Positions 5,559 to 36,177 of a stretch of 38,544 nt of DNA are shown piece by piece (the first letter of the stretch is position 1; every line of letters starts with the position of its first letter). The stretch comes from a virus (taxonomy: Duplodnaviria > Heunggongvirae > Uroviricota > Caudoviricetes): the IMG/VR virus record IMGVR_UViG_3300017917_001353, positions 1 through 38,544 of that record; one strand, given 5' to 3'. The position numbers were made by a program, and so were the translations under genes. The notes beneath the pieces are model-generated. The model saw nothing but the letters and a program-made list of their open reading frames with translations, ran no database searches and was not told the DNA's origin.

Positions 5559-8500
5559 ATGAGTGAAAAAAAGTATTATACGATAGGTGCAACCACCCCT
5601 GAAGCGTGGGAACGTATTCATGCAGTGTTGACTCAGGATGGTACCCTAGACGATAATATACCACCTAGATCAGTTGAATGCGTGGACCTAAAGGAACACA
5701 GTCCCACAAGAGCAGTTTATCTATTAGATGATAACGAAGCCGCACAATTAAGTCAACACCCAGATGTAAAGTTTATTGAGTTAGATAGATCCAAATATCC
5801 AGAACTATTTCCTTCTCCGCCTAACGAAGATTTCCATTACGGCAATAGATACACCGCACCAACTAAGAATCACAGAGATATTATAGCAGGCGGCTATCCA
5901 AATCCTGTAACCACAGCCGACATCAACAGATCGGGCTTTCAGGTACTACGCGGCTCTACTCGTAAGAACCCGTGGGCTACTGCAACTTCTGTTGTTTCGA
6001 GCAGAATTCCAAACGTAACAGGCACAGGTAAAGATGTAGACGTTATCGTTGGGGACGAGGGCTGCTGGTTCGGGCACGTAGAATTTGCCAACAACACAGG
6101 TACAGGCCCTGCTGACTACATTGGCGGTAACCCTTTACCAGGTAACGGAACCTGTGACCTACTGGACCTAGTTCTAGACGGTCCTTATTATATTGACCCT
6201 GCGTGGTTCAATGCAAACCCTGGTACACGATTAATGACACGTTGGGATGGAACGATTGTCCCTACAGAAACAGCAGCCAGAGCTTGGTGGAGTAATGCAG
6301 CACAGCGTTCTGCACAGTTTGCCAGTGCAGGTACTGTGGCAATTCCTAGTTACTACACAAGAGCAGACTGTAACGGATCTAACACAAGTAAGCCTACCTA
6401 TCCAGACGGCGTACACGGAACACCTTGTGCCGGACAGACCTACGGAAGAACACACGGCTGGGCCTACAATGCAAACAAATGGTTTGTAAATGCCTACGGT
6501 AATTATGGACTTTGGCCAGTTGACAATTACTTTGATGTGATGAAAATATTCCATCAAACAAAGCCCATTAATCCTACATACGGTAACAAGAACCCTACAA
6601 TATCTAGCAACAGTTGGGGATATCGTGCCACTCAGGGCAGCACAGGTTATTATTATTTTAGACAAGGTACATCGGGCACAGGCGGAGTTGCTTATAGCTC
6701 TAAGCCTGCGTTCATGCAGTATCTAGGCAGTACAGGTGACGGCGGCCGATTCAAAGGCGAAATGATTGACAACGGATTGACCACAGCAGGCGATGAAATG
6801 ATTGCTGCCGGTGTTATCTTTGTTGCAGCCGCAGGAAACAGTAACCAACAACAGGTAACTTCAGATCATCCTAACTACAATAACTATTGGAGTTCTAGTC
6901 CATCTACACCACTGACAAGTGCAACACACAACGAGTTCGGCGAGTCCTGCTACAACACAACTAATCGAAGAGGTTTCCCTCAGCACATCGGAAAATACTA
7001 TTCTGGAACAGCAACAATATACCCTGCGATTAATATCGGTGCGTTAGACGACGACTATGCTCCAGGTAGTAAAGAGCGCAAGGTAAATTACAGTGACATG
7101 GGTAATGACATTGATGTCTTTACACCAGGAGATGGAACAATTTCTGCAAACTACGGCTCTGGTCTACTGATCCCTCGTTATGATCAGCGCACTGAGCCAG
7201 GTAGTATAACATCTTATGATGCAAGATTTAACGGAACTAGTTCAGCATGTCCAACCGCTACAGGTTTAATTGCAACTATCTTAGAAAACAATAGAACATG
7301 GACATGGCAGAATGTAAGAAATTGGTTACACGATCTAACTCCTCACACTTCTTCTACATTCTATATCGGAGTAGAACCAAGCACGGCAACAGATCCTTCT
7401 TGGTCAGACCTAAACAGCCTTCAAGGCGCTGCTCCTCGTGTATTATATAATGCTAGTCTGGTTGCTACAACTGCAATTAATTTTGTATCCTTAAATGCAT
7501 ACAGTCCAGCGTCTACTCAAATTCCTGTAACTGCATCGGGTGGCACAGGAGTTTACTCTTACTCAATTAGTCCTGCACTACCTGCAGGGCTGTCATACAG
7601 TTCGACTGGTACACTATCTGGTACGCCAACGGTTCTTTCGTCAACAGCAACTTACACAGTTACCGTAGATGATCAAGACGACGTAGCATCTGCTACATTT
7701 AGTTTAAACGTTTATGCAACACCCCTAGTATCGCAGTTAACAACATCAACTGTAAAGATACAGCCGTTAACAACTACCACAGCATTTACGCCTGTAACAG
7801 TTACCGGAGGTAACGGCGCAAAGACCTTTGGTATATCACCTGCATTGCCAGGCACACTAACAATCAACGCAGCCACTGGTCAAATCAATCCAGGTGTTGT
7901 AACAACATTGTTTACAACAACCTTTACTGTAACAGTATCGGATCAAGTAGGACAGAGCACTTCGAAACAGTTTACACTGATTTCTGAAGCACCTCCCCTA
8001 TCTTTATCAGTTGACTACCCTACAGTAAGAATTAACCCATTTGTTACAATATTGCCTATCGCTCCAGTCTCTACCGTTGGAGGATTTGGTACAAAGACTT
8101 ACAGCATCAGTCCGTCTTTGCCCGGTACACTGACTTTCAATACAGCGACCGGCGAGATTGGAGCAGGTGTTGTAACAACATTGTTTACCACGACATTCAC
8201 GATTTCTGTAAGCGACCAAGTAGGTCAAAGTTCTTCTACGCAATTTGATTTAGTATCGGAGATTGTACCGTTGTCCGTTAATACACAGGTTGCCTCTAGA
8301 ACCGTATTAGCATTACAACCAATATCTCCCTATGTGCCTGTTGCAGCCGGCGGCGGTAGTGGTGTCCTTACATATTCTGTAACTCCTGCACTACCAGCAG
8401 GAATTGTATTCAATACAGCAACTGGTCAGGTATCTGGTACTCCTAGTGTACTAGTTAACAACTCTACACATCTAGTTACAGTTAGCGATCAGTTAGGACA

Positions 8501-11015
8501 AAGTCTTAGTGCAAACTTTTCTATCACGGTTCAACCTGTTCCTATTGTAATCAATACTGGGACCAAACGAGTTGTATATCTTAGAAATCAAACTATTACT
8601 CCATTCGTTCCGTTATCTGCATCTGGCGGCAGCGGAGTGCTAACGTATTCGATTAATCCTCCTCTGCCAGAAGGACTAACCCTTAACCCTAGCACAGGCG
8701 CATTGTCAGGAAACACTGGACTGTATATGAAGTCTACATTGTTTACAATGACAGTGGCAGATCAATTAGGACAATCGAAAAACTATCAGTTCTCAATTAA
8801 GATAGCATCAGAACTGAACTTAATTGAATCCGAAGATCAAAATCTTGTACATGATGCTTTATTCAGCATTATGGGTACGACTGCTACAGGCTACGGTGCA
8901 GTATTAATTGGCGACCCAGTTGACCCCGGCCAACTAGTTGAAGCAGATGAATGGAATGAGTTGTTGATGGACGTTGAAAGATGTCTAATACATCAGAATG
9001 GTACTTCAACAAATAACATCATTGCTGCGAGTACAGGTAGCATTGTAGACTTTGCTACACCTGCTAGGATGTACACCACAATTCAGTTCTTACAAAAGAA
9101 CATTGATCAAGTACACCCAAGTCAATTAGATTCGTTTACCTACAACACAAATCAATTGAGTCCTGTTTATTGGACATCTACTAACTATTCTAGTACCGCT
9201 ACTATGGTCGCCGGTAATGGTTACATGACAACCATTAACTGGACATGGTTCTATGAAAATCAACTTCGTTATTTCTTTAACCTAGGTGGCACACTACAAC
9301 CTCAAATTAAGATTGCAGAACCAACTGGGGCAAATGCTAAGAAAGGTTGGAAAGACCTAATTGCCGCTGCCAACCAAGTTGTATTTGGAAAAGAAGAATT
9401 CCTTCAAGCACTGTCTAACCCTAACAAGACATTTATCTACACTGTGGTAGGCAGTGGTGCAGCAGGCGACGCAAAAGGAAAGGTTATAGAAACCAGAAAG
9501 ACAAAGATCATTAGTGAGAAGTACGGCAAACGAATTATCTATAAGAATAAGGATGCTAAAAACTACTCTGCTAATGCACTAACTGTTACATTCAGAGTAA
9601 TGGGTAGTACCATCGTAGGTTCTATGAACTTCGTTGCAGGTCTAGCACTTAAGAAGGCAGGTCCTAAGAAAAAGACTGGTAAAGAAATTATCAAGTACAA
9701 TAAGAAAAATAACAAGAAACATATTTTCTTTGGAAAGAAAGTTATTGATATCTTTACCAAGAAGATCATTGGTAAGTACATTGGTGTTAGAGTTAGACTA
9801 GAAACAGACTTCAAGACAACATACTCTACCGGTGCGAATGGAGGCATCGCTGCACAGATTCCACAGACACAATTGATTGGTAATTATGTTAGTGCGGCGC
9901 CTAGCCCTGTGCCAGAGTTCGTGATGGGCGTAGGAGATACAGAATCGCAGATGATCGTGTTGAGAAACAACAGCACATTTACCTGTGAAGTTTCTGACAT
10001 TGTTCTTAGCGGCTATACGACAGGAACGGTTACCCCTACAACATTAACAATACCTGCGTTCAGCAGCGGCACATTTAGTTTATCCTACACAGGATCACAT
10101 GCTGGACATCATAAAGGTCTAGTTGACGTCTTATGTAACGTAAACAGACTGACACTGTTTACAGAAGTTAATGTTGGTAGCACCAATCCTCCGAACCTAG
10201 TACTGACCACATCTACCTACGATGTTATCAGTCAAGACTTCGTTGTTGACCATGCGGGTGGGTATTTCAAGAGCTTCGACTTGAACTTTGTTCCTGGCCC
10301 AGGATTTACCCATACTCCAAAACTTCCAGATACCATAGATTCATTTAATGTTACGTTTAATCCTAAAAATCTAGTGAATGGTGTTTATACTGCGGGTGTA
10401 GAAGTTACAGTTACTCCGTTAGACAGCAGTCAAGAACCGACAGTGTGGACAGTTCCTGTGGCCATTACACTGGCTGTTGAAAATAGACACATTGCAGATT
10501 GGACAAGTTGCAAACTAGGCAATAACACGAAACTAGGTTTGAGTTATGATATCATCGGAGGCAGAACATATCTAACAGCAGGTATTGGTCTGGGTTCTCC
10601 GTCTATTGCAGAGCTAGGTGTTGCTGAGTCTAATTTTGATTCTTGGAGCGAAGTCTATAGAATTCCTCTCGAAGCAACTACACGAAGGATTTATTCTAAA
10701 GACTATAGAATAAAGGCTGCTGAAGATTTTGTCTACGGCGAATACTTTGGTGTTGGAAGTGCAAGAGGTAGTATACTAACCTGCAACTATGATGGTAAAG
10801 GAAACCTCGAAGTGCTAATGAACACAGTCTATACAGTTCCTGGACAAAATACCAACGAAGTGTTAGACCTAAGTACAGCATTTAGATACTATGACAGCAG
10901 ACGCAGTGCTCAGTTACAGCAGTTGAGCGGACTAACACAAGGTGGCCAGTGCTATGTGTTTAATGGATTTGAAAGATCCGGCGATCTGATGCTAAACCTA
11001 GTGCTACCAAATTAA
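5559..11015 (+). CDS. 1818-aa subtilisin-like (S8) protease with five putative-Ig repeats and a virion-protein-like C-terminal half
   Basis: Intact catalytic set: D166 (VIVGDEG), H286 (GVHGTPCAG), oxyanion Asn (AAAGNS), S561 (FNGTSSACP). About 90-aa prodomain-like N-terminus. Five repeats of GG.G..TYSI.P.LP.GL..N..TG.ISG...FTVTV.DQ. No signal peptide. Confidence 0.85.
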   Translation: MSEKKYYTIGATTPEAWERIHAVLTQDGTLDDNIPPRSVECVDLKEHSPTRAVYLLDDNEAAQLSQHPDVKFIELDRSKYPELFPSPPNEDFHYGNRYTAPTKNHRDIIAGGYPNPVTTADINRSGFQVLRGSTRKNPWATATSVVSSRIPNVTGTGKDVDVIVGDEGCWFGHVEFANNTGTGPADYIGGNPLPGNGTCDLLDLVLDGPYYIDPAWFNANPGTRLMTRWDGTIVPTETAARAWWSNAAQRSAQFASAGTVAIPSYYTRADCNGSNTSKPTYPDGVHGTPCAGQTYGRTHGWAYNANKWFVNAYGNYGLWPVDNYFDVMKIFHQTKPINPTYGNKNPTISSNSWGYRATQGSTGYYYFRQGTSGTGGVAYSSKPAFMQYLGSTGDGGRFKGEMIDNGLTTAGDEMIAAGVIFVAAAGNSNQQQVTSDHPNYNNYWSSSPSTPLTSATHNEFGESCYNTTNRRGFPQHIGKYYSGTATIYPAINIGALDDDYAPGSKERKVNYSDMGNDIDVFTPGDGTISANYGSGLLIPRYDQRTEPGSITSYDARFNGTSSACPTATGLIATILENNRTWTWQNVRNWLHDLTPHTSSTFYIGVEPSTATDPSWSDLNSLQGAAPRVLYNASLVATTAINFVSLNAYSPASTQIPVTASGGTGVYSYSISPALPAGLSYSSTGTLSGTPTVLSSTATYTVTVDDQDDVASATFSLNVYATPLVSQLTTSTVKIQPLTTTTAFTPVTVTGGNGAKTFGISPALPGTLTINAATGQINPGVVTTLFTTTFTVTVSDQVGQSTSKQFTLISEAPPLSLSVDYPTVRINPFVTILPIAPVSTVGGFGTKTYSISPSLPGTLTFNTATGEIGAGVVTTLFTTTFTISVSDQVGQSSSTQFDLVSEIVPLSVNTQVASRTVLALQPISPYVPVAAGGGSGVLTYSVTPALPAGIVFNTATGQVSGTPSVLVNNSTHLVTVSDQLGQSLSANFSITVQPVPIVINTGTKRVVYLRNQTITPFVPLSASGGSGVLTYSINPPLPEGLTLNPSTGALSGNTGLYMKSTLFTMTVADQLGQSKNYQFSIKIASELNLIESEDQNLVHDALFSIMGTTATGYGAVLIGDPVDPGQLVEADEWNELLMDVERCLIHQNGTSTNNIIAASTGSIVDFATPARMYTTIQFLQKNIDQVHPSQLDSFTYNTNQLSPVYWTSTNYSSTATMVAGNGYMTTINWTWFYENQLRYFFNLGGTLQPQIKIAEPTGANAKKGWKDLIAAANQVVFGKEEFLQALSNPNKTFIYTVVGSGAAGDAKGKVIETRKTKIISEKYGKRIIYKNKDAKNYSANALTVTFRVMGSTIVGSMNFVAGLALKKAGPKKKTGKEIIKYNKKNNKKHIFFGKKVIDIFTKKIIGKYIGVRVRLETDFKTTYSTGANGGIAAQIPQTQLIGNYVSAAPSPVPEFVMGVGDTESQMIVLRNNSTFTCEVSDIVLSGYTTGTVTPTTLTIPAFSSGTFSLSYTGSHAGHHKGLVDVLCNVNRLTLFTEVNVGSTNPPNLVLTTSTYDVISQDFVVDHAGGYFKSFDLNFVPGPGFTHTPKLPDTIDSFNVTFNPKNLVNGVYTAGVEVTVTPLDSSQEPTVWTVPVAITLAVENRHIADWTSCKLGNNTKLGLSYDIIGGRTYLTAGIGLGSPSIAELGVAESNFDSWSEVYRIPLEATTRRIYSKDYRIKAAEDFVYGEYFGVGSARGSILTCNYDGKGNLEVLMNTVYTVPGQNTNEVLDLSTAFRYYDSRRSAQLQQLSGLTQGGQCYVFNGFERSGDLMLNLVLPN

Positions 11016-13068: not shown

Positions 13069-14463
13069 ATGAGCGAAGACTCGAGCCTGCACAGCAGGAT
13101 AAGAACTGTCATACCTATTATTAACGAAGTTAGTCAAACGTTTTGTCTAGCCAAGTGGTATCACACAACTCTGTATCTACAGACTGGAGAAACACACAGT
13201 TGTTATCATCCTCCTCCACATAAGATCAGCATCAAAGAGATCAGTAAAGATCCTAGCGCATTGCACAACACCTTGGCTAAGAAAATAGAACGCCAGGAAA
13301 TGTTAGTAGGTGTGCAGACAAAAGGTTGCCAGTATTGCTGGAACGTTGAAAACCTAAAAGGCGATCACCTAAGTGATAGACATCTGCGAAGTGCTGCGAT
13401 CTATACAGAAGATAGGTTCAACACTGCGAGTAGAGGCCCATGGGATCAAAATATTAATCCCGAATACGTTGAAATCAGTTTCGGTAACGAGTGTAATTTT
13501 AAATGCGGTTACTGCCATCCTAAGGCCAGCAGCCGTTTTTACAACGAGATTAAACAACACGGTCCTGTTGAAACAGTAAAGAATCATAGATGCGATATTG
13601 ACTGGCTCAAAATCTACGAGCGTGAAGAAGAAAACCCCTATGTTGATTCTTGGTGGAAGTGGTGGCCAGAACTGCGTAAAGAGTTAACCATCCTTCGCAT
13701 TACAGGTGGGGAACCGTTAATGCATTCTAGCACATGGAAGATGTTTGACAGCATACAAGAAGAACCTCTACCTTGGTTAGAATTAAACATCAATAGTAAC
13801 CTAGGTGTAAAGCCTGCTCTAGTTGATAAAATGATCAGCAAGGTTAACAGTATTATTGATAACAACGGAATCAAAACATTCAAACTGTTTACCAGCATTG
13901 ACACTTGGGGTCCTCGTGCCGAGTATATTCGCACAGGACTAGACTTATCTATATGGGAACGCAACCTCGATGCATACCTAACACAGACCGGCCAGCCTAT
14001 TAGTTTTATGATTACGTTCAATATTATGTCTGTTACGACATTTAAAGAATTGTTATCTAAGATATTAGAATGGCGCGGCAAGTATAATGCTTACAACAAA
14101 ACAGAAAAGCCTCAGATGATAAGGTTCGATACTCCGTATCTAAAAGAGCCGTTGCAGTACGACATTAACATTCTTCCTAAAGATGCGTTCATGCCTTATA
14201 TGGAAGATAGTCTACAGTTTATGAAAGACAACTTAGACGACAACGATCTTTCTAAGTTTACCACTGTAGAATACGAAAAGTTTAGACGGGTCGTCGACTA
14301 TATGAAAAGTGCAACATACTCTGACGAACAGTTGCTTGAAGGACGTCGGGACTTTTACAATTGGTTCAATGCATTAGATTCAAGACGAGACACAAACTTT
14401 ACGCAGGTGTTTCCGGAGATGAAGGACTTTTACAATCAGTGTGGATTACTAGCCAATGAGTGA
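13069..14463 (+). CDS. radical SAM protein with N-terminal twitch-like Cys module
   Basis: CNFKCGYC (CX3CX2C), ITGGEPL. N-terminal FCLAKW..HSCYH..CQYC. Confidence 0.9.
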   Translation: MSEDSSLHSRIRTVIPIINEVSQTFCLAKWYHTTLYLQTGETHSCYHPPPHKISIKEISKDPSALHNTLAKKIERQEMLVGVQTKGCQYCWNVENLKGDHLSDRHLRSAAIYTEDRFNTASRGPWDQNINPEYVEISFGNECNFKCGYCHPKASSRFYNEIKQHGPVETVKNHRCDIDWLKIYEREEENPYVDSWWKWWPELRKELTILRITGGEPLMHSSTWKMFDSIQEEPLPWLELNINSNLGVKPALVDKMISKVNSIIDNNGIKTFKLFTSIDTWGPRAEYIRTGLDLSIWERNLDAYLTQTGQPISFMITFNIMSVTTFKELLSKILEWRGKYNAYNKTEKPQMIRFDTPYLKEPLQYDINILPKDAFMPYMEDSLQFMKDNLDDNDLSKFTTVEYEKFRRVVDYMKSATYSDEQLLEGRRDFYNWFNALDSRRDTNFTQVFPEMKDFYNQCGLLANE

Positions 14464-15670
14464 TACGAATAAATTATTAACTGAAAGTAAAGTGTTTTGC
14501 ATGGCTCCGTGGATTCATGCACACACTAATCCTATCGGTGATGCACATCCTTGCTGCATTGCAAAGGGTATCTTTGCACGGCAAGCAGACTTAAACGGTA
14601 TTGTTAATTCCGAAGGCATGAAGTCTCTAAGACAAGACATGCTTAACGGTAAGGAAAACTCTGCCTGTGTTGCTTGTTACAAACACGAAGAACAGAAGTT
14701 AGACAGTTTCCGCCAATGGTTCAACAGAGAGTACGGAAGCCATGCTTCTTATTCTATCGCAAACACACGTAAAGACGGAACGTTAGATCATTTTAAAATG
14801 CGTTACTTTGATCTACGGTTCAACAACATCTGTAACTTTAAATGCAGGACCTGTAACGCTAGTTTTAGTAGCCAGTGGGAACAAGAGGACCTTAAGCGTA
14901 AGGTGCCTTGGGCAAGAGTGTTACCTCGTAATACTGAAATACTCAGTGAAGTATTAGAACATGTTCCTTACATGGAACATGCTTACTTTGCAGGCGGCGA
15001 GCCTTTGATTACAGAAGAACATTACATCTTACTAGAAGAAATGATTCGACTAGGTAAAACTGATATTAAACTAAAATACAATTCTAATGTCAGCAACCTA
15101 AAGTTCAAGAACAAAGACATTGTCGAGTTGTGGTCTAAGTTCAGTAACCCTATTGAAATGGCAGCAAGCATTGATCACTTTGGTGCTAAGGCCGAATATA
15201 TTAGAACAGGTACTAACTGGGAACAAGTTGAACGCAACCTATTGAAGTTGCGTGACACACCAAACGTTAAGTTACAATTAAATTCTGTTGTAAGTATCTT
15301 TAACTATGTGTCCTACGGCGAATTTGTATCTTACCTAGATATGGTAGGCATACTTGCACCGGAGTCTAGAATTGAGCTTACTCCTTACAACATGGTAGAC
15401 CCACTGCACTTAGCAGCACAGGCTCTACCGATTGATTTAAAACAGCAGGGAAAGCAGAACCTGCTATCTGTAATTGCCAAGATGCAGGGATTAGGTTATA
15501 GAAGTTTCCAGACTGGTATTTTAAAGCAGGCAATTGATTGGGTCGAGGCCGCGAATACCTGGGATCAAAACAAAGATAAATTTAAGCAGGAAATTAAGGA
15601 TATTGACACAGTCAGGAACGAAGACTTTGTCAGCGTATTCCCTGAACTGAAAGGACTGTTAGATGATTGA
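14456..15670 (+). CDS. N-terminal twitch radical SAM protein
   Basis: FCMAPW..HPCC..CVAC, then CNFKCRTC and FAGGEPL. Confidence 0.9.
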   Translation: MSDTNKLLTESKVFCMAPWIHAHTNPIGDAHPCCIAKGIFARQADLNGIVNSEGMKSLRQDMLNGKENSACVACYKHEEQKLDSFRQWFNREYGSHASYSIANTRKDGTLDHFKMRYFDLRFNNICNFKCRTCNASFSSQWEQEDLKRKVPWARVLPRNTEILSEVLEHVPYMEHAYFAGGEPLITEEHYILLEEMIRLGKTDIKLKYNSNVSNLKFKNKDIVELWSKFSNPIEMAASIDHFGAKAEYIRTGTNWEQVERNLLKLRDTPNVKLQLNSVVSIFNYVSYGEFVSYLDMVGILAPESRIELTPYNMVDPLHLAAQALPIDLKQQGKQNLLSVIAKMQGLGYRSFQTGILKQAIDWVEAANTWDQNKDKFKQEIKDIDTVRNEDFVSVFPELKGLLDD

Positions 15671-16919
15671 TAAGATACCAGAGTCTCCTGTATTCTGTAT
15701 TTTGCCTTGGTTACATTTTCACGCCTTACCAAACAAAAAGGTTCTTCCCTGTTGCATGGCTAACAGCGATAAGCCTGTAAGTTCTACAGATAAGGGTAGC
15801 ATCATTGAAATGATGAATACCAAAGAATATAAGCAGTTGCGTAAGAACATGCTATCAGGTACATTCAGCGATGTTTGTAACAGGTGCTATGATGTCGAAC
15901 GAGTAGGACAATGGAGCCTTCGTCAAAGTGCAAATGCTGTTCGAGGTAACAAGAATCTGGATTTGGTTAATTCTACCAAAGAGGATGGCAGCATAGATGA
16001 ATTTAAACTACAATATGTAGATATACGATGGAGCAATATCTGTAACTTCAAGTGTCGCAGTTGCGGACCGGAGTTTAGTAGTCTACACGCAAAAGAGTTT
16101 ATTGATAACAAGGGCGGTGTTGAGAAGTTGCAGCAATACTTCAAAATGGATAACATGGTTGTGAGCTGTAATGAAGACGGCTCCTTCTTTGATAAAGTTG
16201 TTCCATATTTGAAAGACACTGATGAAGTTTATTTCGCAGGCGGCGAAAGTTTAATTACTTCTGAGCATTACAAGATGCTAGACGAATGGATTAGATTAGG
16301 TAACGATGACATACGTCTAACCTACACTACAAACTTCAGCGTATTCAAACACAAAGGTAAAGATGTTATTGAGTATTGGAAAAAGTTTAAGAACATTGCT
16401 ATATTTGCTAGCCTCGATGGAATGGGTAAGAACCTTGAATACCTACGCCACGGTGCAGATTGGACAGAAATAGAAAACAATATCAAGATGCTCAAAGAAC
16501 AGGTTCCACATGTTAAGTTTAATCTAACGCCGACGATCAGCGTTTGGAATGCATGGCATTTCCCTGACTTCTTTGAGTACATGGTAAAGAACAATTATAT
16601 TGATCCAACCAGTGAAGATTGTCTGCGTCTAAACATGTTAACCAATCCTTGGTGGGCCAATGTAGCCATATTACCAAGTTTCTACAAAGACAGATTGTTC
16701 TTAAAGTGGAACAAGATAAAAACTAATTCCAACTATAGTGTAAGTGTTCGTAACGCGGCTGCTATGGTTCAAGAAGCACTAAAAGGTGAAACAAGAGTCG
16801 AAGGTCTAAAGGAGTTTTTTGATATTCAAAAGGAAACCGATGAACTCAGAAAAGAAGATTGGATTAATTCGATACCAGAACTAGAGGACGTATACGAATG
16901 GGTGGAAGAAAACTCTTAA
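15663..16919 (+). CDS. N-terminal twitch radical SAM protein
   Basis: FCILPW..LPCC..CNRC, then CNFKCRSC and FAGGESL. Confidence 0.9.
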   Translation: MIDKIPESPVFCILPWLHFHALPNKKVLPCCMANSDKPVSSTDKGSIIEMMNTKEYKQLRKNMLSGTFSDVCNRCYDVERVGQWSLRQSANAVRGNKNLDLVNSTKEDGSIDEFKLQYVDIRWSNICNFKCRSCGPEFSSLHAKEFIDNKGGVEKLQQYFKMDNMVVSCNEDGSFFDKVVPYLKDTDEVYFAGGESLITSEHYKMLDEWIRLGNDDIRLTYTTNFSVFKHKGKDVIEYWKKFKNIAIFASLDGMGKNLEYLRHGADWTEIENNIKMLKEQVPHVKFNLTPTISVWNAWHFPDFFEYMVKNNYIDPTSEDCLRLNMLTNPWWANVAILPSFYKDRLFLKWNKIKTNSNYSVSVRNAAAMVQEALKGETRVEGLKEFFDIQKETDELRKEDWINSIPELEDVYEWVEENS

Positions 16920-17883: not shown

Positions 17884-20109
17884 GTGGATTTTGGTTTACA
17901 GGCGCTCAAGAAAAATAAAATAGAAATACCGGAGCGTCCTTCTACTGATGTTGAAGATGCACGCCATCGAGCAATGATGGATGCTATCGCACCTTATGCA
18001 AAAAAGGTACAGCAGTCTAACGCAACACCGGTCTACATAGATTATAAAACAAGAAAGACAAAGTTAGTTTTAGTTATGTGCCCTGAGTGGGCGCCTGACA
18101 TGCCTCCTTTCAACCTAGCAAGACTAAGTGGTATTGCAAAGACTGCGGGCTATGAAACAAACATATTAGATCTCAATATCAGAGCCTACAACGAGTTTGA
18201 AAAGGTTTGGTGGCCTGAACGTAGGATTCCGTTCAGGCTTTGGAATCCCAGTGCCACATGGCATTGGTTAGGAGATAACTATTACAAATACATACATCCG
18301 TTGTTAGGACCGTTGCTTGAACAAGCAATCGAAGAAGTGCTGGCGTTAGAACCCGATGTTGTGGGGTTTACACAATACTACACTAGCGAACAACCTACCA
18401 ACTGGATGGCCGCTGAAATAAAGCGCAGAGCACCCCACATTAAAATTGCCGTTGGCGGAAGTAATGTACAAAAGGATTGGTTCTCCGCACCGGACTGCTA
18501 TGACTACGTTGTAGTAGGAGAAGGCGAACAGGCCCTTTTAAACATTCTAGACGAGATTGAAGAAAGCAAAGCCGAACCGGGGCAGAAACTAATTAAGCAA
18601 CCTGAAGATCAACGTATCAGCATTAACGATCTGCCTATGCCTGATTACGAAAGTATCGACTTTAGTCAATACAAAGTTCCTAACGGAGTTAACAGTGAAA
18701 TCAGCAGAGGTTGTACAGCAAAGTGTACATTCTGTGAAGAAACACACTTCTGGAAGTATCGTCAGCGTCAAGCAGTTGATCTTATTAAAGAAGTAGAATG
18801 GCTCTACTACAATAAAGGCACAGATGTTATTTGGTTCATTGACAGTCTAGTGAACGGTAATCTTAAAGAACTACGTGCATTCTGCAAAGCAGTTGAAGCA
18901 AAGAAGTTGCCTATACATTGGACAGGCTATGCTCGTTGCGACGGCCGTATGGACCTAGAATACTTCAAGGATCTAAAAGCAGGTGGTTGCATTATTCTTA
19001 ACTACGGTATTGAATCGGGTAGTCAGAAAGTACTCGACGATATGGCCAAGGGCGTAACTATTGCAGAGATGGAACAGAACTTCCGTGACGGTAAGTCTGT
19101 AGGAATCTATGCTGCAACTAACTGGATAGTTGGGTTTCCTACGGAACAGCATCAAGACTTTGCCGACACAATGACTCTTTTGTGGCGCATCAGGAATATG
19201 AATGTTAATAATATTGGCGCTGGCATGGGCTTTGGTCTAGGCCCAGAAACTATTGTTGGACAGAATCCTGCTAAGTTTAACCTGAGTGACTTCAGTTACA
19301 TGAATCACTGGATTACCAAAGATTTCAAACTAGGCGGTACACACGTTATGTCTAGAGTCAAAGCATTCTATACATTCATTGATATGATGCGCGGCACAAC
19401 TGCATTAGACTTTGGATATCCTATTCGTGACAATCTAGAAAAGGAACATTACAAGATTACACTAGATAGGCCCGGAAGGTTAAATGAAAATGTAAACTAC
19501 GAAAAGTTTGACTATAACATTATCAAACCTAACATCAATCCGTTTGCAGATAGTCTTGTAAATGAGATGTGGCCTTTCTTTAGATTGCTGTGGAGAGCCC
19601 GCGGCGGTTATGAAGCAGAAATTTACTTTAATCCTGAGATAGATCTAAAGGAGTTTGGTAGCCAGTACGGTCCTGGAATGTACAATGCCGTACTTAAATT
19701 TAAGATAACAGAAGATGGCAAATGGACTGCTGACTTTAAGTTTAAGTTTGAACAGGTTAAACTACCGCCGTATCAAGAAAAAGATCCAGACCGTTGCGGT
19801 CCTTTCTACTTTCAAGACTTTACACGTCTAAAGAGTAATACAGCCGCTCGTGCTAGAAAACTAGCCAAGCCCGAGTGGTCTACTGAACATGGTCGCAGCG
19901 ATATGGAGTTCTGGGAATTGATACAGGAAGAATTTAAGTTGAACAAAGAAATTGACTTTAGTTTCGAACATCACTATCAGGATACAGGGGATTGGGGTAA
20001 CTGGAAAGACTATGAAGTAGAAGTGTCTAATGTTTCTGCTATGGCTGTTCCTGAGCGCCCATCAGTATTTTCAATTCCGTTAGATAAGATCAAAAGGGCT
20101 AGTCAATGA
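17884..20109 (+). CDS. cobalamin-binding radical SAM enzyme (class B methyltransferase-like), GTG start
   Basis: B12 domain motifs MPPFNLARL, DVVGFT, IAVGGSN, DYVVVGEGEQ, LPMPDY. Then SRGCTAKCTFC, GIESGS, IVGFPTE, and a ~250-aa unassigned C-terminal extension. Confidence 0.88.
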   Translation: MDFGLQALKKNKIEIPERPSTDVEDARHRAMMDAIAPYAKKVQQSNATPVYIDYKTRKTKLVLVMCPEWAPDMPPFNLARLSGIAKTAGYETNILDLNIRAYNEFEKVWWPERRIPFRLWNPSATWHWLGDNYYKYIHPLLGPLLEQAIEEVLALEPDVVGFTQYYTSEQPTNWMAAEIKRRAPHIKIAVGGSNVQKDWFSAPDCYDYVVVGEGEQALLNILDEIEESKAEPGQKLIKQPEDQRISINDLPMPDYESIDFSQYKVPNGVNSEISRGCTAKCTFCEETHFWKYRQRQAVDLIKEVEWLYYNKGTDVIWFIDSLVNGNLKELRAFCKAVEAKKLPIHWTGYARCDGRMDLEYFKDLKAGGCIILNYGIESGSQKVLDDMAKGVTIAEMEQNFRDGKSVGIYAATNWIVGFPTEQHQDFADTMTLLWRIRNMNVNNIGAGMGFGLGPETIVGQNPAKFNLSDFSYMNHWITKDFKLGGTHVMSRVKAFYTFIDMMRGTTALDFGYPIRDNLEKEHYKITLDRPGRLNENVNYEKFDYNIIKPNINPFADSLVNEMWPFFRLLWRARGGYEAEIYFNPEIDLKEFGSQYGPGMYNAVLKFKITEDGKWTADFKFKFEQVKLPPYQEKDPDRCGPFYFQDFTRLKSNTAARARKLAKPEWSTEHGRSDMEFWELIQEEFKLNKEIDFSFEHHYQDTGDWGNWKDYEVEVSNVSAMAVPERPSVFSIPLDKIKRASQ

Positions 20110-22284: not shown

Positions 22285-22829
22285 TGAACTACAAATTAAA
22301 TCAGTGGGACCACTTTGATACCTCGTATCTAAAAACCTTTGGGCAGGAAGTACCTGTCTATAGTCCCAGTGTCTATAGAGAATATAGAGGAGAGATCTTT
22401 ACTACATTCCATAGCACAGCACACCCTGTTATGCAGTTATTACCAGAACAGGTAAACGTACACGGCCGCTTTAGTAAATCATTCAAAGGTGTCTTAAGGG
22501 GATTACACTATGACACAAAGACTTGGAAGTTAGTACAGGCTCTAGTGGGAGAAATATATCTTGTGGTGCTAGATGTTAGACAAAACAGTCCAACATATGG
22601 AAAGTGGGAGTCCTACATTATCAGCGAACGTACTCGAGATCAAGTGTTGGTTCCTCCGGGCTTTGCCAACGGACACTTTGCACTTACGGATTGTATATTT
22701 CATTATAACCTTTTCTACGAAGGAGACTATGTAGACGAAAATGCACAGGGTGTAGTGAAGTGGAATGATATTAGATTTGAAATTGAATGGCCTACAGACA
22801 CACCCATTCTGCAACGGAGAGACAGATGA
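22284..22829 (+). CDS. rmlC: dTDP-4-dehydrorhamnose 3,5-epimerase-like cupin
   Basis: GVLRGLHY (catalytic His), WKLV (Lys), DVRQNSPTYGKW, VLVPPGFANGH, FHY. Confidence 0.88.
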   Translation: MNYKLNQWDHFDTSYLKTFGQEVPVYSPSVYREYRGEIFTTFHSTAHPVMQLLPEQVNVHGRFSKSFKGVLRGLHYDTKTWKLVQALVGEIYLVVLDVRQNSPTYGKWESYIISERTRDQVLVPPGFANGHFALTDCIFHYNLFYEGDYVDENAQGVVKWNDIRFEIEWPTDTPILQRRDR

Positions 22830-23452
22830 TTAATTTAAAGCATTACAGCATAGTACGGGATCATGGCATGACAGCAGATGATCTAATAAATTTTGAAAAC
22901 AAAATAGTTGAACATTGGGAAAATGCTAAAATTAGAGGCCCGGTGCACCTTTCTAACGGAAATGAAGGGCAACTGATAGAGATATTCAAACGCATTAGAA
23001 CAACAGATTGGGTATTCAGCACATGGCGCAGTCATTATCATGCATTGTTAAAGGGCATAGATCCTAACTGGATCGAAAGCGAAATCCTTGCAGGTCGTTC
23101 TATTACACTGTGCAACATTGACGAAAAGTTTTATTCTAGCGCCATTGTAACTGCGACACTGCCTATCGCTCTAGGCACCGCTCTTTCGATTAAAAGATCC
23201 GGCGGTACTGATAAGGTGTGGGTGTTTGTAGGCGATATGAGTTTTGAAAGTGGTATATTCTATGAAGTACACAAGTATGCGAGAAACTTTGATCTTCCCC
23301 TTTATTTTGTTGTGGAAGATAACGGTGTATCTACATACACACCTACTGAAATAACATGGAATATTAAAAGAGATATTCCTAAAGATGTAATTTACTACAA
23401 CTACAAATCAAAATATCCTCACTACGGCTCAGGTAAATGGATAGCGTTCTAA
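22826..23452 (+). CDS. minimal TPP-dependent E1 alpha-like subunit; start revised from 22787
   Basis: PVHLSNGNE, STWRSHYHAL, and TPP-binding motif VGDMS..VVEDN. ATG 22826 overlaps the rmlC stop as ATGA. Confidence 0.85.
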   Translation: MINLKHYSIVRDHGMTADDLINFENKIVEHWENAKIRGPVHLSNGNEGQLIEIFKRIRTTDWVFSTWRSHYHALLKGIDPNWIESEILAGRSITLCNIDEKFYSSAIVTATLPIALGTALSIKRSGGTDKVWVFVGDMSFESGIFYEVHKYARNFDLPLYFVVEDNGVSTYTPTEITWNIKRDIPKDVIYYNYKSKYPHYGSGKWIAF

Positions 23453-31717: not shown

Positions 31718-32589
31718 AAAGCAAACCGGATAGCCGTGTAATCAAAGGCATGGTTTTTGCAGGCTGTAGTTTTACTTGGGGACAAGGGTTATACTACTAC
31801 AGTAACCTGAGCACCCTAGGCGAGCCGTTACCAGACCATTACGATAAAAATTTAGTCAAGCATTCCCACATTAAGTTTAAAGAAAGTGTACGCTATCCTA
31901 GGCTTGTAGCAAATCATTTCAATACCTACGAATTTGTACACCCAGAGAACGGCGGGTCTAATCAGGGAGCAGTACATTGGTGGGAGAATGTTTTTACAAA
32001 CAAAGATCCTAATGCTTGGTACGGTGGCCACACTATTCCAAAGGTAGAATATTCAGATGTGTCGCATGTTGTATTTCAATTAACACAGTGGCAGCGTGAT
32101 AACTTTGAAATGATCTTAGAAGGAGATCCCGAAAAGCACAACATACCGTTCCATTGTACGCATCAAGAACAGTATAGAGATAAGTTCTTTAAATGGCTAG
32201 AAGTGCAGAAACTAAGTTTAGGTACATGGATTCAGCAGTACATTCAGGGCGGACTAGATAATGTAAAGAGGTTCCTGCAGGACTGCGAAGCACACGGCGT
32301 AAAAACTCTATTGTTTACTTGGCCTAGCGAATACCTTCCCTACATTGAAAAGGATCCTTGGCTCAAAGAACGGTTTATTACCTTTGACTATAAGGGTATT
32401 AACTATAAGAGTATTGAAGATCTCATGAGCCCAGGTACCATGCAGAATAAAGGATACAATCCTGAGCTAACCATTAAGTGGGACGAAACAGAGTTTGTCG
32501 AGACTCCAAAGGATCACCACCCTAGTTTAACATGCCATCAAGTAATGGCCGAAAACGTTATTAAAAGAATTGAAAGAGATATGCAATGA
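31714..32589 (+). CDS. SGNH-like protein, paralog of 30124-31026
   Basis: FAGCSFTWGQG, NGGSN, DHHPS. Shares DPWLKERFITFDYKG exactly with 30124-31026. Confidence 0.7.
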   Translation: MKSKPDSRVIKGMVFAGCSFTWGQGLYYYSNLSTLGEPLPDHYDKNLVKHSHIKFKESVRYPRLVANHFNTYEFVHPENGGSNQGAVHWWENVFTNKDPNAWYGGHTIPKVEYSDVSHVVFQLTQWQRDNFEMILEGDPEKHNIPFHCTHQEQYRDKFFKWLEVQKLSLGTWIQQYIQGGLDNVKRFLQDCEAHGVKTLLFTWPSEYLPYIEKDPWLKERFITFDYKGINYKSIEDLMSPGTMQNKGYNPELTIKWDETEFVETPKDHHPSLTCHQVMAENVIKRIERDMQ

Positions 32590-33128
32590 GCGGACCTCAA
32601 CTTAGTCCTTACAAGGATGCACTAACTGAAGCAATGACTTTCTTAGGAGAGCAGGATAATACAGTGTTCATAGGACAGCAGATTGTTTATGCAGGCAATC
32701 CAATGAGTACTACGCTAGGCAACGTATCTAAAGATAAGATGGTAGAACTGCCTGTAATGGAAGAAACACAAATGGGCATGACTCTAGGCATTGCAATGAC
32801 AGGAAAAACTGTTATCACATTCTACCCTCGTTGGGATTTTATTGTGCTGGCTGTTAATCAACTTGTTAACCATATAGACAAGTATGAACTAATGACTGGC
32901 AAACGTGCAAACATCTTAATCCGTTTGGGAAAAGGCAGCGACAAGCCGCTTGATCCCGGACATCAACATAAGGGCAACTACCTTGACGAGTTCAGGTCGA
33001 TGTGCCCTAACATTAAATTTCATGATCTAAAAGATACAGCACATATTCTCAAAACCTACAAGGATGCATATCATACCGGTGGTGTTCATGTTCTTGTAGA
33101 GTATCCAGAACTATACTACGTACAATGA
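32586..33128 (+). CDS. TPP-dependent E1 beta / transketolase pyrimidine-binding domain only (180 aa)
   Basis: VFIGQ, ELPVMEETQMGMTLGIAMTG, AVNQLVN, PGHQH. Lacks the C-terminal transketolase domain. Confidence 0.85.
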   Translation: MSGPQLSPYKDALTEAMTFLGEQDNTVFIGQQIVYAGNPMSTTLGNVSKDKMVELPVMEETQMGMTLGIAMTGKTVITFYPRWDFIVLAVNQLVNHIDKYELMTGKRANILIRLGKGSDKPLDPGHQHKGNYLDEFRSMCPNIKFHDLKDTAHILKTYKDAYHTGGVHVLVEYPELYYVQ

Positions 33129-34380: not shown

Positions 34381-34713
34381 ATGAAACTTTTAGTCAATAT
34401 GTTTAACGTTGTTTCGGTGCCAATTAATCATGTGATTACGTTTGCTAAAACCCATCTCGGGCATGTTAGTGCAAATACGCTAGGCTGGATTACAATTATC
34501 CTATTGCATCTGGCCAGCGTACCTACCCTAGTTGCAGTCTTACTGGCTCAGAACGACAAATTACCATCAATTGATCTTATGATGTTTGTTTGGGCCGCGC
34601 TAACTACGCTGTTCTTCAAAAGTCTTATTGAAAAGAACTATTTGTATATCGCAACTAACTGTATGGGCTTTTTGGCACAGACAGTACTGATGGGGTTCAT
34701 CTTGTTCAAATAA
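34381..34713 (+). CDS. 3-TM membrane protein, SemiSWEET/PQ-loop-like
   Basis: Three hydrophobic helices. The spacing G-x12-P-x14-S-x29-N fits the SemiSWEET pattern. Confidence 0.55.
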   Translation: MKLLVNMFNVVSVPINHVITFAKTHLGHVSANTLGWITIILLHLASVPTLVAVLLAQNDKLPSIDLMMFVWAALTTLFFKSLIEKNYLYIATNCMGFLAQTVLMGFILFK

Positions 34714-34724
34714 TAAATACGTGA

Positions 34725-34973
34725 ATGCGTATACAAGATCTTTTAGAAAAGAAACTCAAAGCGCCCACAGCCAGCCAATGCTCTGTGGGCCATTCTCGCC
34801 TTAGCAATGTTCGTTATTCACAATGCGTTAGTTTAGGTTTGCTTAAACACGACAGCGATCACACCGATGGCACCGGCAAACAAGGCGTTAAGGGTAGTGG
34901 TAAATCCTTAAAAGGACGCAGAGCAAAAAGCGAGATCCATGGCGGCCCTGTAAAAGACTATGACGGAAAATAA
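34725..34973 (+). CDS. small basic protein, probably late
   Basis: ATAAATA at 34713-34719, 5 nt before the ATG. Starts MRIQDLLE. Rich in Lys, Gly and Ser. Confidence 0.7.
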   Translation: MRIQDLLEKKLKAPTASQCSVGHSRLSNVRYSQCVSLGLLKHDSDHTDGTGKQGVKGSGKSLKGRRAKSEIHGGPVKDYDGK

Positions 34974-35115
34974 TCTTTCTTTTGAAAACTATAAAAGGTA
35001 TACAAGAAAGTGCAAATGCGGGTGCGATATGCACTGCGGTCATAGTTGTCTAGAATGTGATTATTGTACAGAATGTGAGTGCGAGTATTGTTTAACTTCT
35101 AACGAAAAGGACTAA
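34960..35115 (+). CDS. 51-aa cysteine-rich, metallothionein-like mini-protein (not in ORF track)
   Basis: MTENNLSFENYKRYTRKCKCGCDMHCGHSCLECDYCTECECEYCLTSNEKD has 10 Cys and 2 His within 27 residues. It fills the gap between 34973 and iscU, ending 2 nt before the iscU ATG. Confidence 0.7.
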   Translation: MTENNLSFENYKRYTRKCKCGCDMHCGHSCLECDYCTECECEYCLTSNEKD

Positions 35116-35117
35116 AC

Positions 35118-35507
35118 ATGGCATACAGTGATAAAGTTGTAGATCATTACGAAAACCCTAGAAATGTTGGCTCTTTTGATAAGAACGACACTGATGTAGG
35201 CACGGGTATGGTCGGAGCCCCCGCTTGCGGAGATGTAATGAAGTTACAGATAAAGGTTGATGAACATGGTATTATTAGAGATGCTCGTTTTAAGACATAT
35301 GGTTGCGGCTCCGCAATCGCCAGCTCGAGCCTGGTCACTGAAATGGTTAAAGGAATGCATCTGGATGATGCTAGTAACATTCGTAATAGCCAGATTGCTG
35401 AAGAACTAGCCCTTCCGCCAGTTAAAATTCATTGCAGTATTTTAGCCGAAGATGCTATCAAGGCCGCAGTAGAAGATTATAAAAAGAAACATGATCTCAC
35501 TAACTGA
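35118..35507 (+). CDS. iscU: Fe-S cluster scaffold IscU
   Basis: YSDKVVDHYENPRNVG, GAPACGDVM, KTYGCGSAIASSS, LPPVKIHCSILAEDAI. Confidence 0.95.
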   Translation: MAYSDKVVDHYENPRNVGSFDKNDTDVGTGMVGAPACGDVMKLQIKVDEHGIIRDARFKTYGCGSAIASSSLVTEMVKGMHLDDASNIRNSQIAEELALPPVKIHCSILAEDAIKAAVEDYKKKHDLTN

Positions 35508-35811
35508 GTCTGCTTCTAAAAAAATAAACCAAACTCTAAAGAAACGCGGACGCGGTCTTGGAATTAGAATTGGTGTCAAAACTACAGGTTGTAGTGGTCT
35601 AGCCTATGTGCTAGAATATGTAGACACACCTGGCCCAGATGATAAATGTATAGACTGCGGAGAATGTAAAGTTTTCGTAGATCCAAAGAGTTGTCCATAT
35701 TTGCAGGGCATGACTATTGACTATGTCAAGCAAGGACTAAATGAAGGATTTGAATTTAAGAATCCAAATGAACGCGATCGTTGTGGTTGCGGGGAGAGTT
35801 TTAGAGTATGA
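35491..35811 (+). CDS. iscA: A-type Fe-S carrier IscA
   Basis: [32 protein letters not shown]. Confidence 0.92.
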
Positions 35812-36131
35812 TCGAAGTTACAGAAACAGCCGTTAAAAAAATTACTGATCTTCTAGCAGAAGAAAACAATCCAAAACTTAAACTTCGTACTTTTGTACAA
35901 GGCGGAGGATGCAGTGGATTCCAATACGGATTTACATTTGACGAAGAACAGGCCGAAGACGACTTTGTAATCGAACGTCCGGGCATGACTCTGCTAGTAG
36001 ATGCAATGAGTATGCAGTACCTTTCTGGCGCAACAATTGATTATAAAGAAGAACTTATGGGCAGTAGTTTTACTATAAACAATCCGCAAGCCCAAAGTAC
36101 CTGCGGTTGCGGCAGTAGTTTTAGTGTATGA
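35808..36131 (+). CDS. erpA: A-type Fe-S insertion protein, ErpA-like
   Basis: [51 protein letters not shown]. Confidence 0.88.
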
Positions 36132-36148: not shown

Positions 36149-36177
36149 TTGACATTTGGCTCAATTTCCCATACAAT
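36149..36177 (+). promoter_or_regulatory. near-consensus sigma70 promoter of the ligase transcript
   Basis: TTGACA (36149-36154), 17 bp, TACAAT (36172-36177), with an upstream A-tract. Confidence 0.8.

What the first reader, a model, noticed from the sequence alone, without database searches (positions are those of the whole stretch)
34960..35115. Unannotated metallothionein-like mini-protein directly upstream of iscU
Seen: a 51-codon ORF below the track cutoff with the core CKCGCDMHCGHSCLECDYCTECECEYC (10 Cys and 2 His in 27 aa, CxC and CxxC motifs). It overlaps the previous gene's end and stops 2 nt before the iscU ATG, with the iscU SD inside its last codons, which is operon-like packing. 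Established: CxC/CxxC-dense short peptides with His are typical of bacterial metallothioneins (SmtA/BmtA). Inference: it is a phage metal buffer (Zn/Cu scavenger protecting Fe-S assembly) or an Fe/Fe-S donor. An alternative is a Cys-rich substrate for the SPASM/twitch radical SAM enzymes.
Basis: partly seen in the sequence, partly recalled or inferred. Interest (0 to 1): 0.76.

Follow-up and report, generated by a model that had tools for sequence, protein, structure and literature searches.

The report
Phage cysteine-rich mini-protein beside iscU
The 51-codon reading frame is a real, conserved gene for a tiny, probably metal-binding protein of an uncatalogued phage family; it is made together with the phage's iron-sulfur scaffold IscU, but it is optional and is not a relative of known metallothioneins.

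Summary
ORF 34960-35115 (+) encodes 51 aa, with 10 Cys and 2 His in 27 residues. It overlaps the upstream ORF by 14 nt and stops 2 nt before the iscU ATG.

It is a real gene. I found about 70 protein clusters and 118 IMG/VR phage contigs (78 distinct peptides), all with intact stand-alone ORFs of 43-88 aa, nearly all 44-64. C18, C20, H25, C26, C30, C33, C36, C41 and C44 are invariant, and position 22 alternates Cys/His. Synonymous sites are mostly saturated and dN/dS is about 0.4. There is one copy per genome.

No Pfam, PHROG, NCBIfam or PDB relative exists, so it is not an SmtA/BmtA homologue.

The gene lies directly beside iscU or iscA in at least three separate branches of the family, often with a TAATG stop/start overlap. 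Only 16 of 78 peptides are isc-linked. 79 of the 80 phage iscU loci closest to the window's lack it, including one with identical gene order. Five other iscU-carrying jumbo phage genomes have none. Its commonest partner is an unknown 206-aa protein.

Best reading: a mobile, optional mini-protein built around a metal-thiolate cluster, probably zinc, that may serve the phage's metal and Fe-S economy. The function is untested. First readers of this scan noted the same family on other DNA.

The parts
34960..35115 (+). 51-aa Cys/His-rich mini-protein gene (the HCGHSC family); a self-contained cassette of about 156 bp
   Evidence: homologues; clean presence/absence against L163
35011..35091 (+). Conserved ligand core C-x-C-x-[C/H]-x2-H-C-G-H-S-C-x2-C-D-x-C-x-E-C-x-C-x2-C (residues 18-44)
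   Evidence: Invariant columns; TGT/TGC codons mixed at every Cys, and position 22 is 52 Cys / 27 His,
35104..35111 (+). Shine-Dalgarno-like AAAAGGAC for iscU inside the last codons of the mini-gene
   Evidence: In 5 of the 8 distinct loci where the mini-gene precedes iscU, its stop overlaps the iscU start as TAATG
35118..35507 (+). IscU scaffold (NifU_N)
   Evidence: Pfam PF01592, E 2.4e-53
35491..35811 (+). A-type Fe-S carrier 1 (IscA/HesB type)
   Evidence: Pfam PF01521, E 6.5e-20
35808..36131 (+). A-type Fe-S carrier 2 (ErpA/IscA type)
   Evidence: Pfam PF01521, E 1.2e-20
34725..34973 (+). 82-aa ORF of unknown function whose 3' end overlaps the mini-gene start. In relative L163 its homologue ends 2 nt before iscU
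34381..34713 (+). 110-aa ORF of unknown function, syntenic in L106, L163, L077 and L102
33794..34372 (+). SleB-type cell-wall hydrolase, first gene of the tightly packed block
   Evidence: Pfam PF07486, E 1.9e-23
36149..36177 (+). Sigma-70-like promoter (11 of 12 matches) ahead of the DNA ligase; likely downstream limit of the isc unit
   Evidence: consensus match only

Best explanation
The ORF is a real, translated gene for a 51-residue protein of a previously uncatalogued family found on phage contigs, including T4-like jumbo phage genomes. The family signature is C-x-C-x-[C/H]-x2-HCGHSC-x2-4-C-[D/E]-x0-1-C-x-[E/D]-C-x-C-x2-C. The protein has no hydrophobic core, and I infer that it folds around a metal-thiolate cluster held by 11-12 Cys/His ligands, most likely 3-4 Zn-type ions. 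In the window it is a cassette of about 156 bp placed exactly between an 82-aa ORF and iscU, and it is translated from the same message as IscU and two A-type carriers. My committed mechanism, which is inferred and not shown, is this: it is an optional metal-handling helper for a phage that encodes 6-16 radical SAM enzymes and IscU/IscA but no cysteine desulfurase. It would buffer or hand over thiophilic metal (Zn, Cu or Fe) around the Fe-S scaffold and other metalloenzymes. It is not an obligate IscU cofactor and not a homologue of SmtA/BmtA.
For: Real gene: 70 clusters at 90% identity and 25 clusters at 50% identity, all 43-88 aa and stand-alone. 118 IMG/VR contigs give 78 distinct intact peptides. 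Median dN/dS is 0.40 over 216 pairs with unsaturated dS, and most pairs have saturated dS. Each genome tested has one copy.

Metal ligands: 9 invariant Cys/His, plus C39 at >=90%, and Cys/His exchange at position 22. Loop lengths vary (x2-4 and x0-1), which suits a thiolate cluster better than a ferredoxin fold; this is read directly from the alignment. AlphaFold2 gives only pLDDT 61 despite 86 sequences, as expected for a fold that depends on metal.

Link to isc: the gene lies directly upstream of iscU or iscA in several gene orders. A TAATG stop/start overlap occurs in 5 of the 8 distinct loci where the mini-gene precedes iscU. Well-supported branches of the family tree force at least 3 separate isc associations.

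Other contexts with a metal theme: radical SAM, fatty-acid desaturase, heme oxygenase, Dps/ferritin.

Genome background: all five mini-carrying genomes have IscA, four have IscU, each has 6-16 radical SAM genes, and none has IscS; the one weak Aminotran_5 match, in G003, is not clearly a desulfurase.
Against: Only 16 of 78 peptides are isc-linked. The commonest partner is an unknown 206-aa protein (27 of 78), and 21 of 78 sit at structural-gene junctions or in another non-isc context: 11 at gp14|gp15 and 10 in the L004-type setting. Among 80 loci carrying the nuclease gene, the mini-gene and the 206-aa gene are either both present (9) or both absent (65), with few exceptions. 79 of 80 close iscU loci lack the mini-gene, as does L163 with the same gene order. 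Five iscU-carrying jumbo genomes lack it entirely. No metal binding has been measured and no usable structure model was obtained. The iron-themed neighbours could simply reflect the clustering of accessory genes in variable regions of T4-like genomes.
Confidence: 0.4

Rival explanations
1. A zinc-structured mini-domain whose job has nothing to do with Fe-S assembly. It would be a small adaptor that binds another protein or nucleic acid, for example the 206-aa partner, a tail-fibre or virion assembly factor, or a host-takeover target. Under this reading its place before iscU is one of many landing sites of a mobile cassette.
For: The strongest co-occurrence is with the 206-aa protein, in either gene order (L091/L093) and sometimes next to fibre-like proteins (L005, L055). 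11 peptides sit between gp14-like and gp15 tail genes. The gene is dispensable for iscU-carrying phages. Cys/His exchange is typical of zinc sites.
Against: Direct adjacency to isc genes arose or persisted in at least 3 separate branches of the family. My rough estimate is p of about 0.002-0.03 if insertions hit gene junctions at random. Translational coupling to iscU is tight. The 206-aa partner has no known fold or family, so it gives no function.
Confidence: 0.3
2. A miniature iron or Fe-S redox protein (rubredoxin- or ferredoxin-like) that supplies electrons to IscU-based assembly, radical SAM enzymes, desaturase or heme oxygenase.
For: Several neighbour types are enzymes that need a small electron donor: IscU, radical SAM, FA desaturase, heme oxygenase. 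CxxCxxC spacing is present in the window's protein. The phage genomes carry no fdx next to isc.
Against: Spacing between the Cys residues varies among members. There is no CxxCxxCxxxCP motif, almost no hydrophobic shielding, and Cys/His interchange. No Fer4, rubredoxin or any other Pfam match appears even at E<=10.
Confidence: 0.15
3. A ribosomal peptide precursor (sacti- or ranthipeptide-like) that the phage's radical SAM enzymes cross-link.
For: The size and Cys density resemble SCIFF-type precursors. In one subgroup a radical SAM gene lies directly upstream (L066) or divergent (L021, L036, L071). The window has five radical SAM genes at 13-20 kb.
Against: Only 3 of 78 peptides are next to a radical SAM gene. 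That enzyme reaches no RiPP-maturase cut-off. No SCIFF or RiPP NCBIfam match was found for 86 members. The invariant His and the Cys/His exchange argue for metal ligation. In the window the nearest radical SAM gene is 15 kb away.
Confidence: 0.05

Closest known systems
Bacterial metallothioneins SmtA/BmtA (Pfam PF02069, Zn4Cys9His2 cluster)
   Same: Small (about 50-56 aa), with about 11 Cys/His ligands including His, no sizeable hydrophobic core, and CxC motifs. The cluster stoichiometry is from my own knowledge.
   Different: No detectable sequence relationship and different Cys spacing. The protein is strongly acidic, with an invariant HCGHSC block. It is phage-borne and is not linked to a SmtB/ArsR-type metal sensor in any locus examined.
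Eukaryotic tri-zinc CXC / pre-SET / tesmin-type Zn3Cys9 clusters
   Same: The pattern starts with CxC and ends with CxCxxC, with about 9 Cys in about 30 residues. This resemblance is recalled from memory, so it is a lead and not a test.
   Different: Those are domains of large chromatin proteins. No Pfam match was found. The His ligands and the phage context differ.
Small accessory proteins of isc operons (IscX/YfhJ, CyaY/frataxin, Fdx)
   Same: Small and acidic, and encoded in the same operon as IscU.
   Different: There is no homology. IscX and CyaY have no Cys cluster, and Fdx is a 4-Cys [2Fe-2S] fold of about 110 aa. The mini-protein is dispensable for most phage iscU operons.
SCIFF / ranthipeptide precursors
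   Same: About 45-50 aa and many Cys.
   Different: SCIFF genes sit next to their radical SAM/SPASM maturase. Here that holds for 3 of 78 peptides only, and no NCBIfam match was found.
Other unannotated Cys-rich phage mini-proteins noted by this scan (e1-5324563, e1-4775430, e1-5336191)
   Same: Tiny, uncatalogued, Cys-dense genes on marine or T4-like phage contigs, read as probable metal binders.
   Different: They have different lengths (21-40 aa) and signatures. I did not test whether they are related to this family.

Membership tests
SmtA/BmtA metallothioneins (PF02069) | Sequence match to the family profile | tested here: not met
   No Pfam hit at E<=0.1 for the window protein and none at E<=10 for any of 86 members. 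No PDB sequence hit at E<=10.
SmtA/BmtA metallothioneins (PF02069) | Ligand set of about 9 Cys + 2 His forming a Zn4 cluster | tested here: inconclusive
   The count is compatible: 9 invariant Cys/His, plus C39, plus Cys/His at position 22. Cluster topology cannot be derived, because the AF2 model has pLDDT 61.
SmtA/BmtA metallothioneins (PF02069) | Binds Zn/Cd/Cu in vitro or in vivo | not testable with these tools
   Needs ICP-MS or native MS of purified protein.
Isc operon accessory proteins (IscX, CyaY, Fdx) | Homology to PF04384, PF01491 or PF00111 | tested here: not met
   No Pfam match.
Isc operon accessory proteins (IscX, CyaY, Fdx) | Consistent co-occurrence with iscU | tested here: not met
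   Adjacent in 16 of 78 peptides. Absent from 79 of 80 close iscU loci and from 5 iscU-carrying genomes.
SCIFF / radical-SAM-modified peptide precursors | Match to precursor models and an adjacent radical SAM/SPASM maturase | tested here: not met
   No NCBIfam match. The window's nearest radical SAM gene is 15 kb upstream. The adjacent radical SAM gene in L066 is far below every RiPP-maturase cut-off.
Ferredoxin-type [4Fe-4S] proteins | CxxCxxCxxxCP motif and a Fer4-family match | tested here: not met
   The motif is absent from the sequence, the spacing varies, and there is no Fer4 hit.
New 'HCGHSC' phage mini-protein family (defined here) | Stand-alone protein of 43-64 aa with C-x-C-x-[C/H]-x2-HCGHSC-x2-4-C-[D/E]-x0-1-C-x-[E/D]-C-x-C-x2-C | tested here: met
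   The window protein carries every invariant column of the 86-sequence alignment. The profile hit in its own genome has E 1.2e-17.

The most novel reading that the evidence does not exclude
The mini-protein is a new kind of phage-encoded Fe-S assembly factor. It would be a highly acidic metal-cluster module that docks on host IscS and/or phage IscU/IscA and diverts sulfur, iron or electrons to the phage scaffold. The phages lack their own desulfurase and ferredoxin, so this would replace the IscX/CyaY/Fdx layer of control.
Probability: 0.12. Interest if true: 0.85.

Novelty: new variant of a known kind. Interest (0 to 1): 0.55.

Why it matters
Phage iscU and iscA genes are known auxiliary genes of T4-like environmental phages that are rich in radical SAM enzymes (PMC5332604). 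How such phages supply metal, sulfur and electrons to their own scaffold is not known. This work defines an uncatalogued family of about 50-residue Cys/His proteins, with more than 100 instances on phage contigs, several of them jumbo genomes of 278-364 kb. The gene has repeatedly ended up translationally coupled to iscU or iscA. If it handles metal for Fe-S assembly, it would be the first phage-specific accessory of that pathway. If it does not, it is still a compact new metal-binding module and an example of a mini-gene cassette that inserts precisely at gene junctions.

Tried and rejected
- tblastn of two family members against GenBank phages found nothing. BLAST's low-complexity filter may contribute. 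Cyanophage S-RIM32, which shares the neighbouring virion gene, has unrelated small ORFs at that site.
- The PHROG scan gave no family.
- The ESM Atlas feature search gave only unnamed clusters at scores of 0.82-0.84, below the useful range.
- AlphaFold2 of the mini-protein gave pLDDT 61, so I made no fold search with it.
- Complex prediction of the mini-protein with IscU returned no verdict (score 0.02). This is not evidence either way.
- The 206-aa partner folded at pLDDT 81. It has no PDB fold match (Foldseek E>=0.24, VIA Z<=3.4), no Pfam or PHROG family and no PDB sequence relative.
I replaced it with two degenerate DNA patterns.
- Literature searches for the motif and for phage metallothioneins found nothing relevant.
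- I did not attempt a genome-level co-occurrence table with isc-negative genomes, because most related contigs are fragments.

Full report
**1. The observation**

The sequence is exactly as described.
- The ATG is at 34960 and the TAA at 35113-35115, giving 51 aa.
- The 27-residue core, residues 18-44, has 10 Cys and 2 His.
- The start overlaps the 82-aa ORF 34725-34973 by 14 nt.
- The iscU ATG follows the stop after 2 nt, and an AAGGA motif lies in the last codons.
- It is the most Cys-rich ATG-started ORF of at least 40 aa in the 102.5-kb record.

**2. The setting**

- The window is the first 38.5 kb of an IMG/VR virus record that CheckV estimates to be 29% complete.
- Relatives that carry the same mini-gene are phage records of 278-364 kb.
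- They have T4-type tail genes and a virion protein shared with T4-like cyanophages.
- Downstream of the ORF lie IscU, two A-type carriers and an ATP-dependent DNA ligase.
- Upstream lie a SleB-type hydrolase and two small unknown ORFs.
- Further upstream are five radical SAM genes, three of which pass the NCBIfam N-terminal-twitch model, along with sugar-nucleotide enzymes.
- No promoter-like or terminator-like site clearly separates the ORF from iscU. A strong promoter-like site appears only before the ligase.

**3. It is a real gene and a new family**

- A first scan of viral contigs found 9 loci with the same Cys pattern.
- A profile search of 5.8 billion proteins gave 70 clusters of 44-88 aa.
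- An exhaustive HMMER search of 1.84 billion representatives gave 25 clusters of 43-88 aa. None was a longer fusion; the single 88-aa hit is probably a start called too far upstream.
- Two degenerate DNA patterns for the core found 118 IMG/VR contigs. Each carries an intact small ORF, giving 78 distinct peptides in all.
- In the 86-sequence alignment, which was not pattern-selected, C18, C20, H25, C26, C30, C33, C36, C41 and C44 are invariant. G27, S29 and C39 are at least 90% conserved.
- Position 22, which was outside the DNA pattern, is Cys in 52 and His in 27 coding sequences. Every conserved Cys uses TGT and TGC about equally.
- Most pairs are saturated at synonymous sites. The 216 unsaturated pairs have a median dN/dS of 0.40, and 99.5% are below 1.
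- Each of five genomes tested has exactly one copy.
- No Pfam match (E<=10, all 86 members), NCBIfam match (E<=1), PHROG match or PDB sequence match exists.
- No paper in the searched library contains the motif.

**4. What the protein probably is**

- The core has almost no hydrophobic residues and many acidic ones.
- The loops between ligands vary in length among members (x2-4 and x0-1).
- One ligand position swaps Cys for His.
- AlphaFold2 cannot fold it with confidence despite a deep alignment (pLDDT 61).
- From established knowledge of zinc sites and metallothioneins, these are the marks of a fold dictated by a metal-thiolate cluster.
- Eleven to twelve ligands would hold about three mononuclear sites or a bridged cluster of 3-4 ions. 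This step is inferred.
- The variable spacing and the lack of shielding argue against a classical Fe-S ferredoxin, but they do not exclude iron.

**5. The link to iscU**

*In favour*
- The mini-gene lies immediately upstream of iscU or of an A-type carrier in many different gene orders:
  - hydrolase-110-82-mini-IscU-IscA-IscA-ligase (window, L106, L087);
  - IscA-mini-IscU-IscA (L002);
  - mini-IscU (L041, L089, L095, L126, L134);
  - divergent from IscA and the ligase (L077, L102, L124);
  - mini-IscA (L078, L030/45/46);
  - mini-206aa-IscA (L082).
- In 5 of the 8 distinct loci where the mini-gene precedes iscU, its stop overlaps the iscU start as TAATG.
- On a tree of the family, well-supported branches force at least three separate isc associations.
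- My rough estimate of chance is about 0.002-0.03, assuming random insertion at gene junctions.
- All five mini-carrying genomes encode IscA, four encode IscU, each has 6-16 radical SAM genes, and none has a clear cysteine desulfurase.
- Other neighbours include radical SAM, fatty-acid desaturase, heme oxygenase, Dps/ferritin and isocitrate lyase.

*Against*
- Only 16 of 78 peptides are isc-linked.
- 27 of 78 precede, or in two cases follow, a conserved 206-aa protein of unknown family and fold.
- Among 80 loci carrying the neighbouring nuclease gene, the mini-gene and the 206-aa gene are present together in 9, alone in 4 and 2, and both absent in 65.
- 11 of 78 sit between a gp14-like gene and the gp15 tail-sheath stabiliser, and 10 sit in another non-isc setting.
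- Of the 80 IMG/VR loci whose IscU is 81-92% identical to the window's, only one has the mini-gene within 3 kb.
- L163 has the window's exact gene order, but the 82-aa ORF ends 2 nt before iscU. The difference is a clean indel of about 156 bp.
- Five further iscU-carrying jumbo genomes, one of them complete, have no copy. The same search found the copy in all five positive controls.

The mini-gene is therefore a mobile, optional cassette and not an obligate IscU partner.

**6. Mechanism**

Shown:
- the gene is real;
- the ligand-type residues are conserved;
- the gene is packed against iscU as for coupled translation, and in relatives its stop overlaps the iscU start;
- it is a precise cassette.

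Inferred:
- it binds metal, most likely zinc-type ions;
- it takes part in the phage's metal and Fe-S economy.

I commit to an optional metal-handling helper at a confidence of 0.4. It would buffer or hand over thiophilic metal near IscU/IscA and other metalloenzymes. The rivals are:
- a zinc-structured adaptor with an unrelated partner, such as the 206-aa protein or virion assembly (0.3);
- a miniature iron or Fe-S electron carrier (0.15);
- a radical-SAM-modified peptide (0.05).

**7. Comparison with known families**

- It works like a metallothionein in composition and probable ligand count, but it fails the membership test for SmtA/BmtA.
- It matches no isc accessory family, ferredoxin family or RiPP precursor family.
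- The resemblance to eukaryotic Zn3Cys9 CXC clusters is from memory only.
- First readers of this scan had noted members of this same family on other DNA, behind a tail fibre and before the 207-aa ORF (e1-1840379, e1-1864918) and as a 49-aa ORF (e1-5364462).
- Follow-up reports exist for other, shorter Cys-rich phage mini-proteins.

**8. Verdict**

- This is a new family of a known general kind, the small Cys/His metal-binding proteins.
- It has a real but facultative tie to phage Fe-S assembly genes.
- Its function is untested.

Noticed in passing
L013:6162-6779, L011:6186-6779 and about 27 other loci: A conserved 206-aa protein is the commonest neighbour of the mini-gene. It has invariant H/D/E/C motifs such as LDHSMFLCR, KWGFDFALDAV, EVLHVEYD and VRHTDW. 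The AF2 model has pLDDT 81. It has no Pfam, PHROG or PDB fold relative. It may be an uncharacterised metalloenzyme.
   Followed up: partly
window 13069-16919: Three tandem paralogous radical SAM genes pass the NCBIfam model for N-terminal twitch-domain radical SAM proteins (E 1e-91 to 1e-107). They are followed by a fourth radical SAM gene and a 741-aa B12-binding radical SAM gene (17884-20109).
   Followed up: partly
L163:2756-3387 compared with window 34725-35507: A relative with identical gene order lacks only the mini-gene. Both states keep a 2-nt gap before the iscU ATG, so the cassette was gained or lost with base-pair precision.
   Followed up: yes
window 22787-23452 and 32586-33128: Short ORFs match pieces of thiamine-dependent enzymes (E1 dehydrogenase component; transketolase pyrimidine-binding domain). 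They flank a run of NAD-dependent sugar epimerase/dehydratase genes and a 2OG-Fe(II) oxygenase gene.
   Followed up: no
G000:C1:45679-47387 (outside the window): The virion structural protein shared with T4-like cyanophages (for example S-RIM32) is followed directly by a staphylococcal-nuclease-like gene that is 85% identical to the copy in relatives. In those relatives a 140-aa gene, the mini-gene and the 206-aa gene sit between the two.
   Followed up: partly
L107, L071, L038, L022, L033: In other phages the mini-gene lies beside fatty-acid desaturase, heme oxygenase, Dps/ferritin-like or isocitrate lyase genes. This is a loosely iron-themed set of auxiliary genes.
   Followed up: partly
window 5559-11015: An ORF of 1818 aa that I did not examine.
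   Followed up: no
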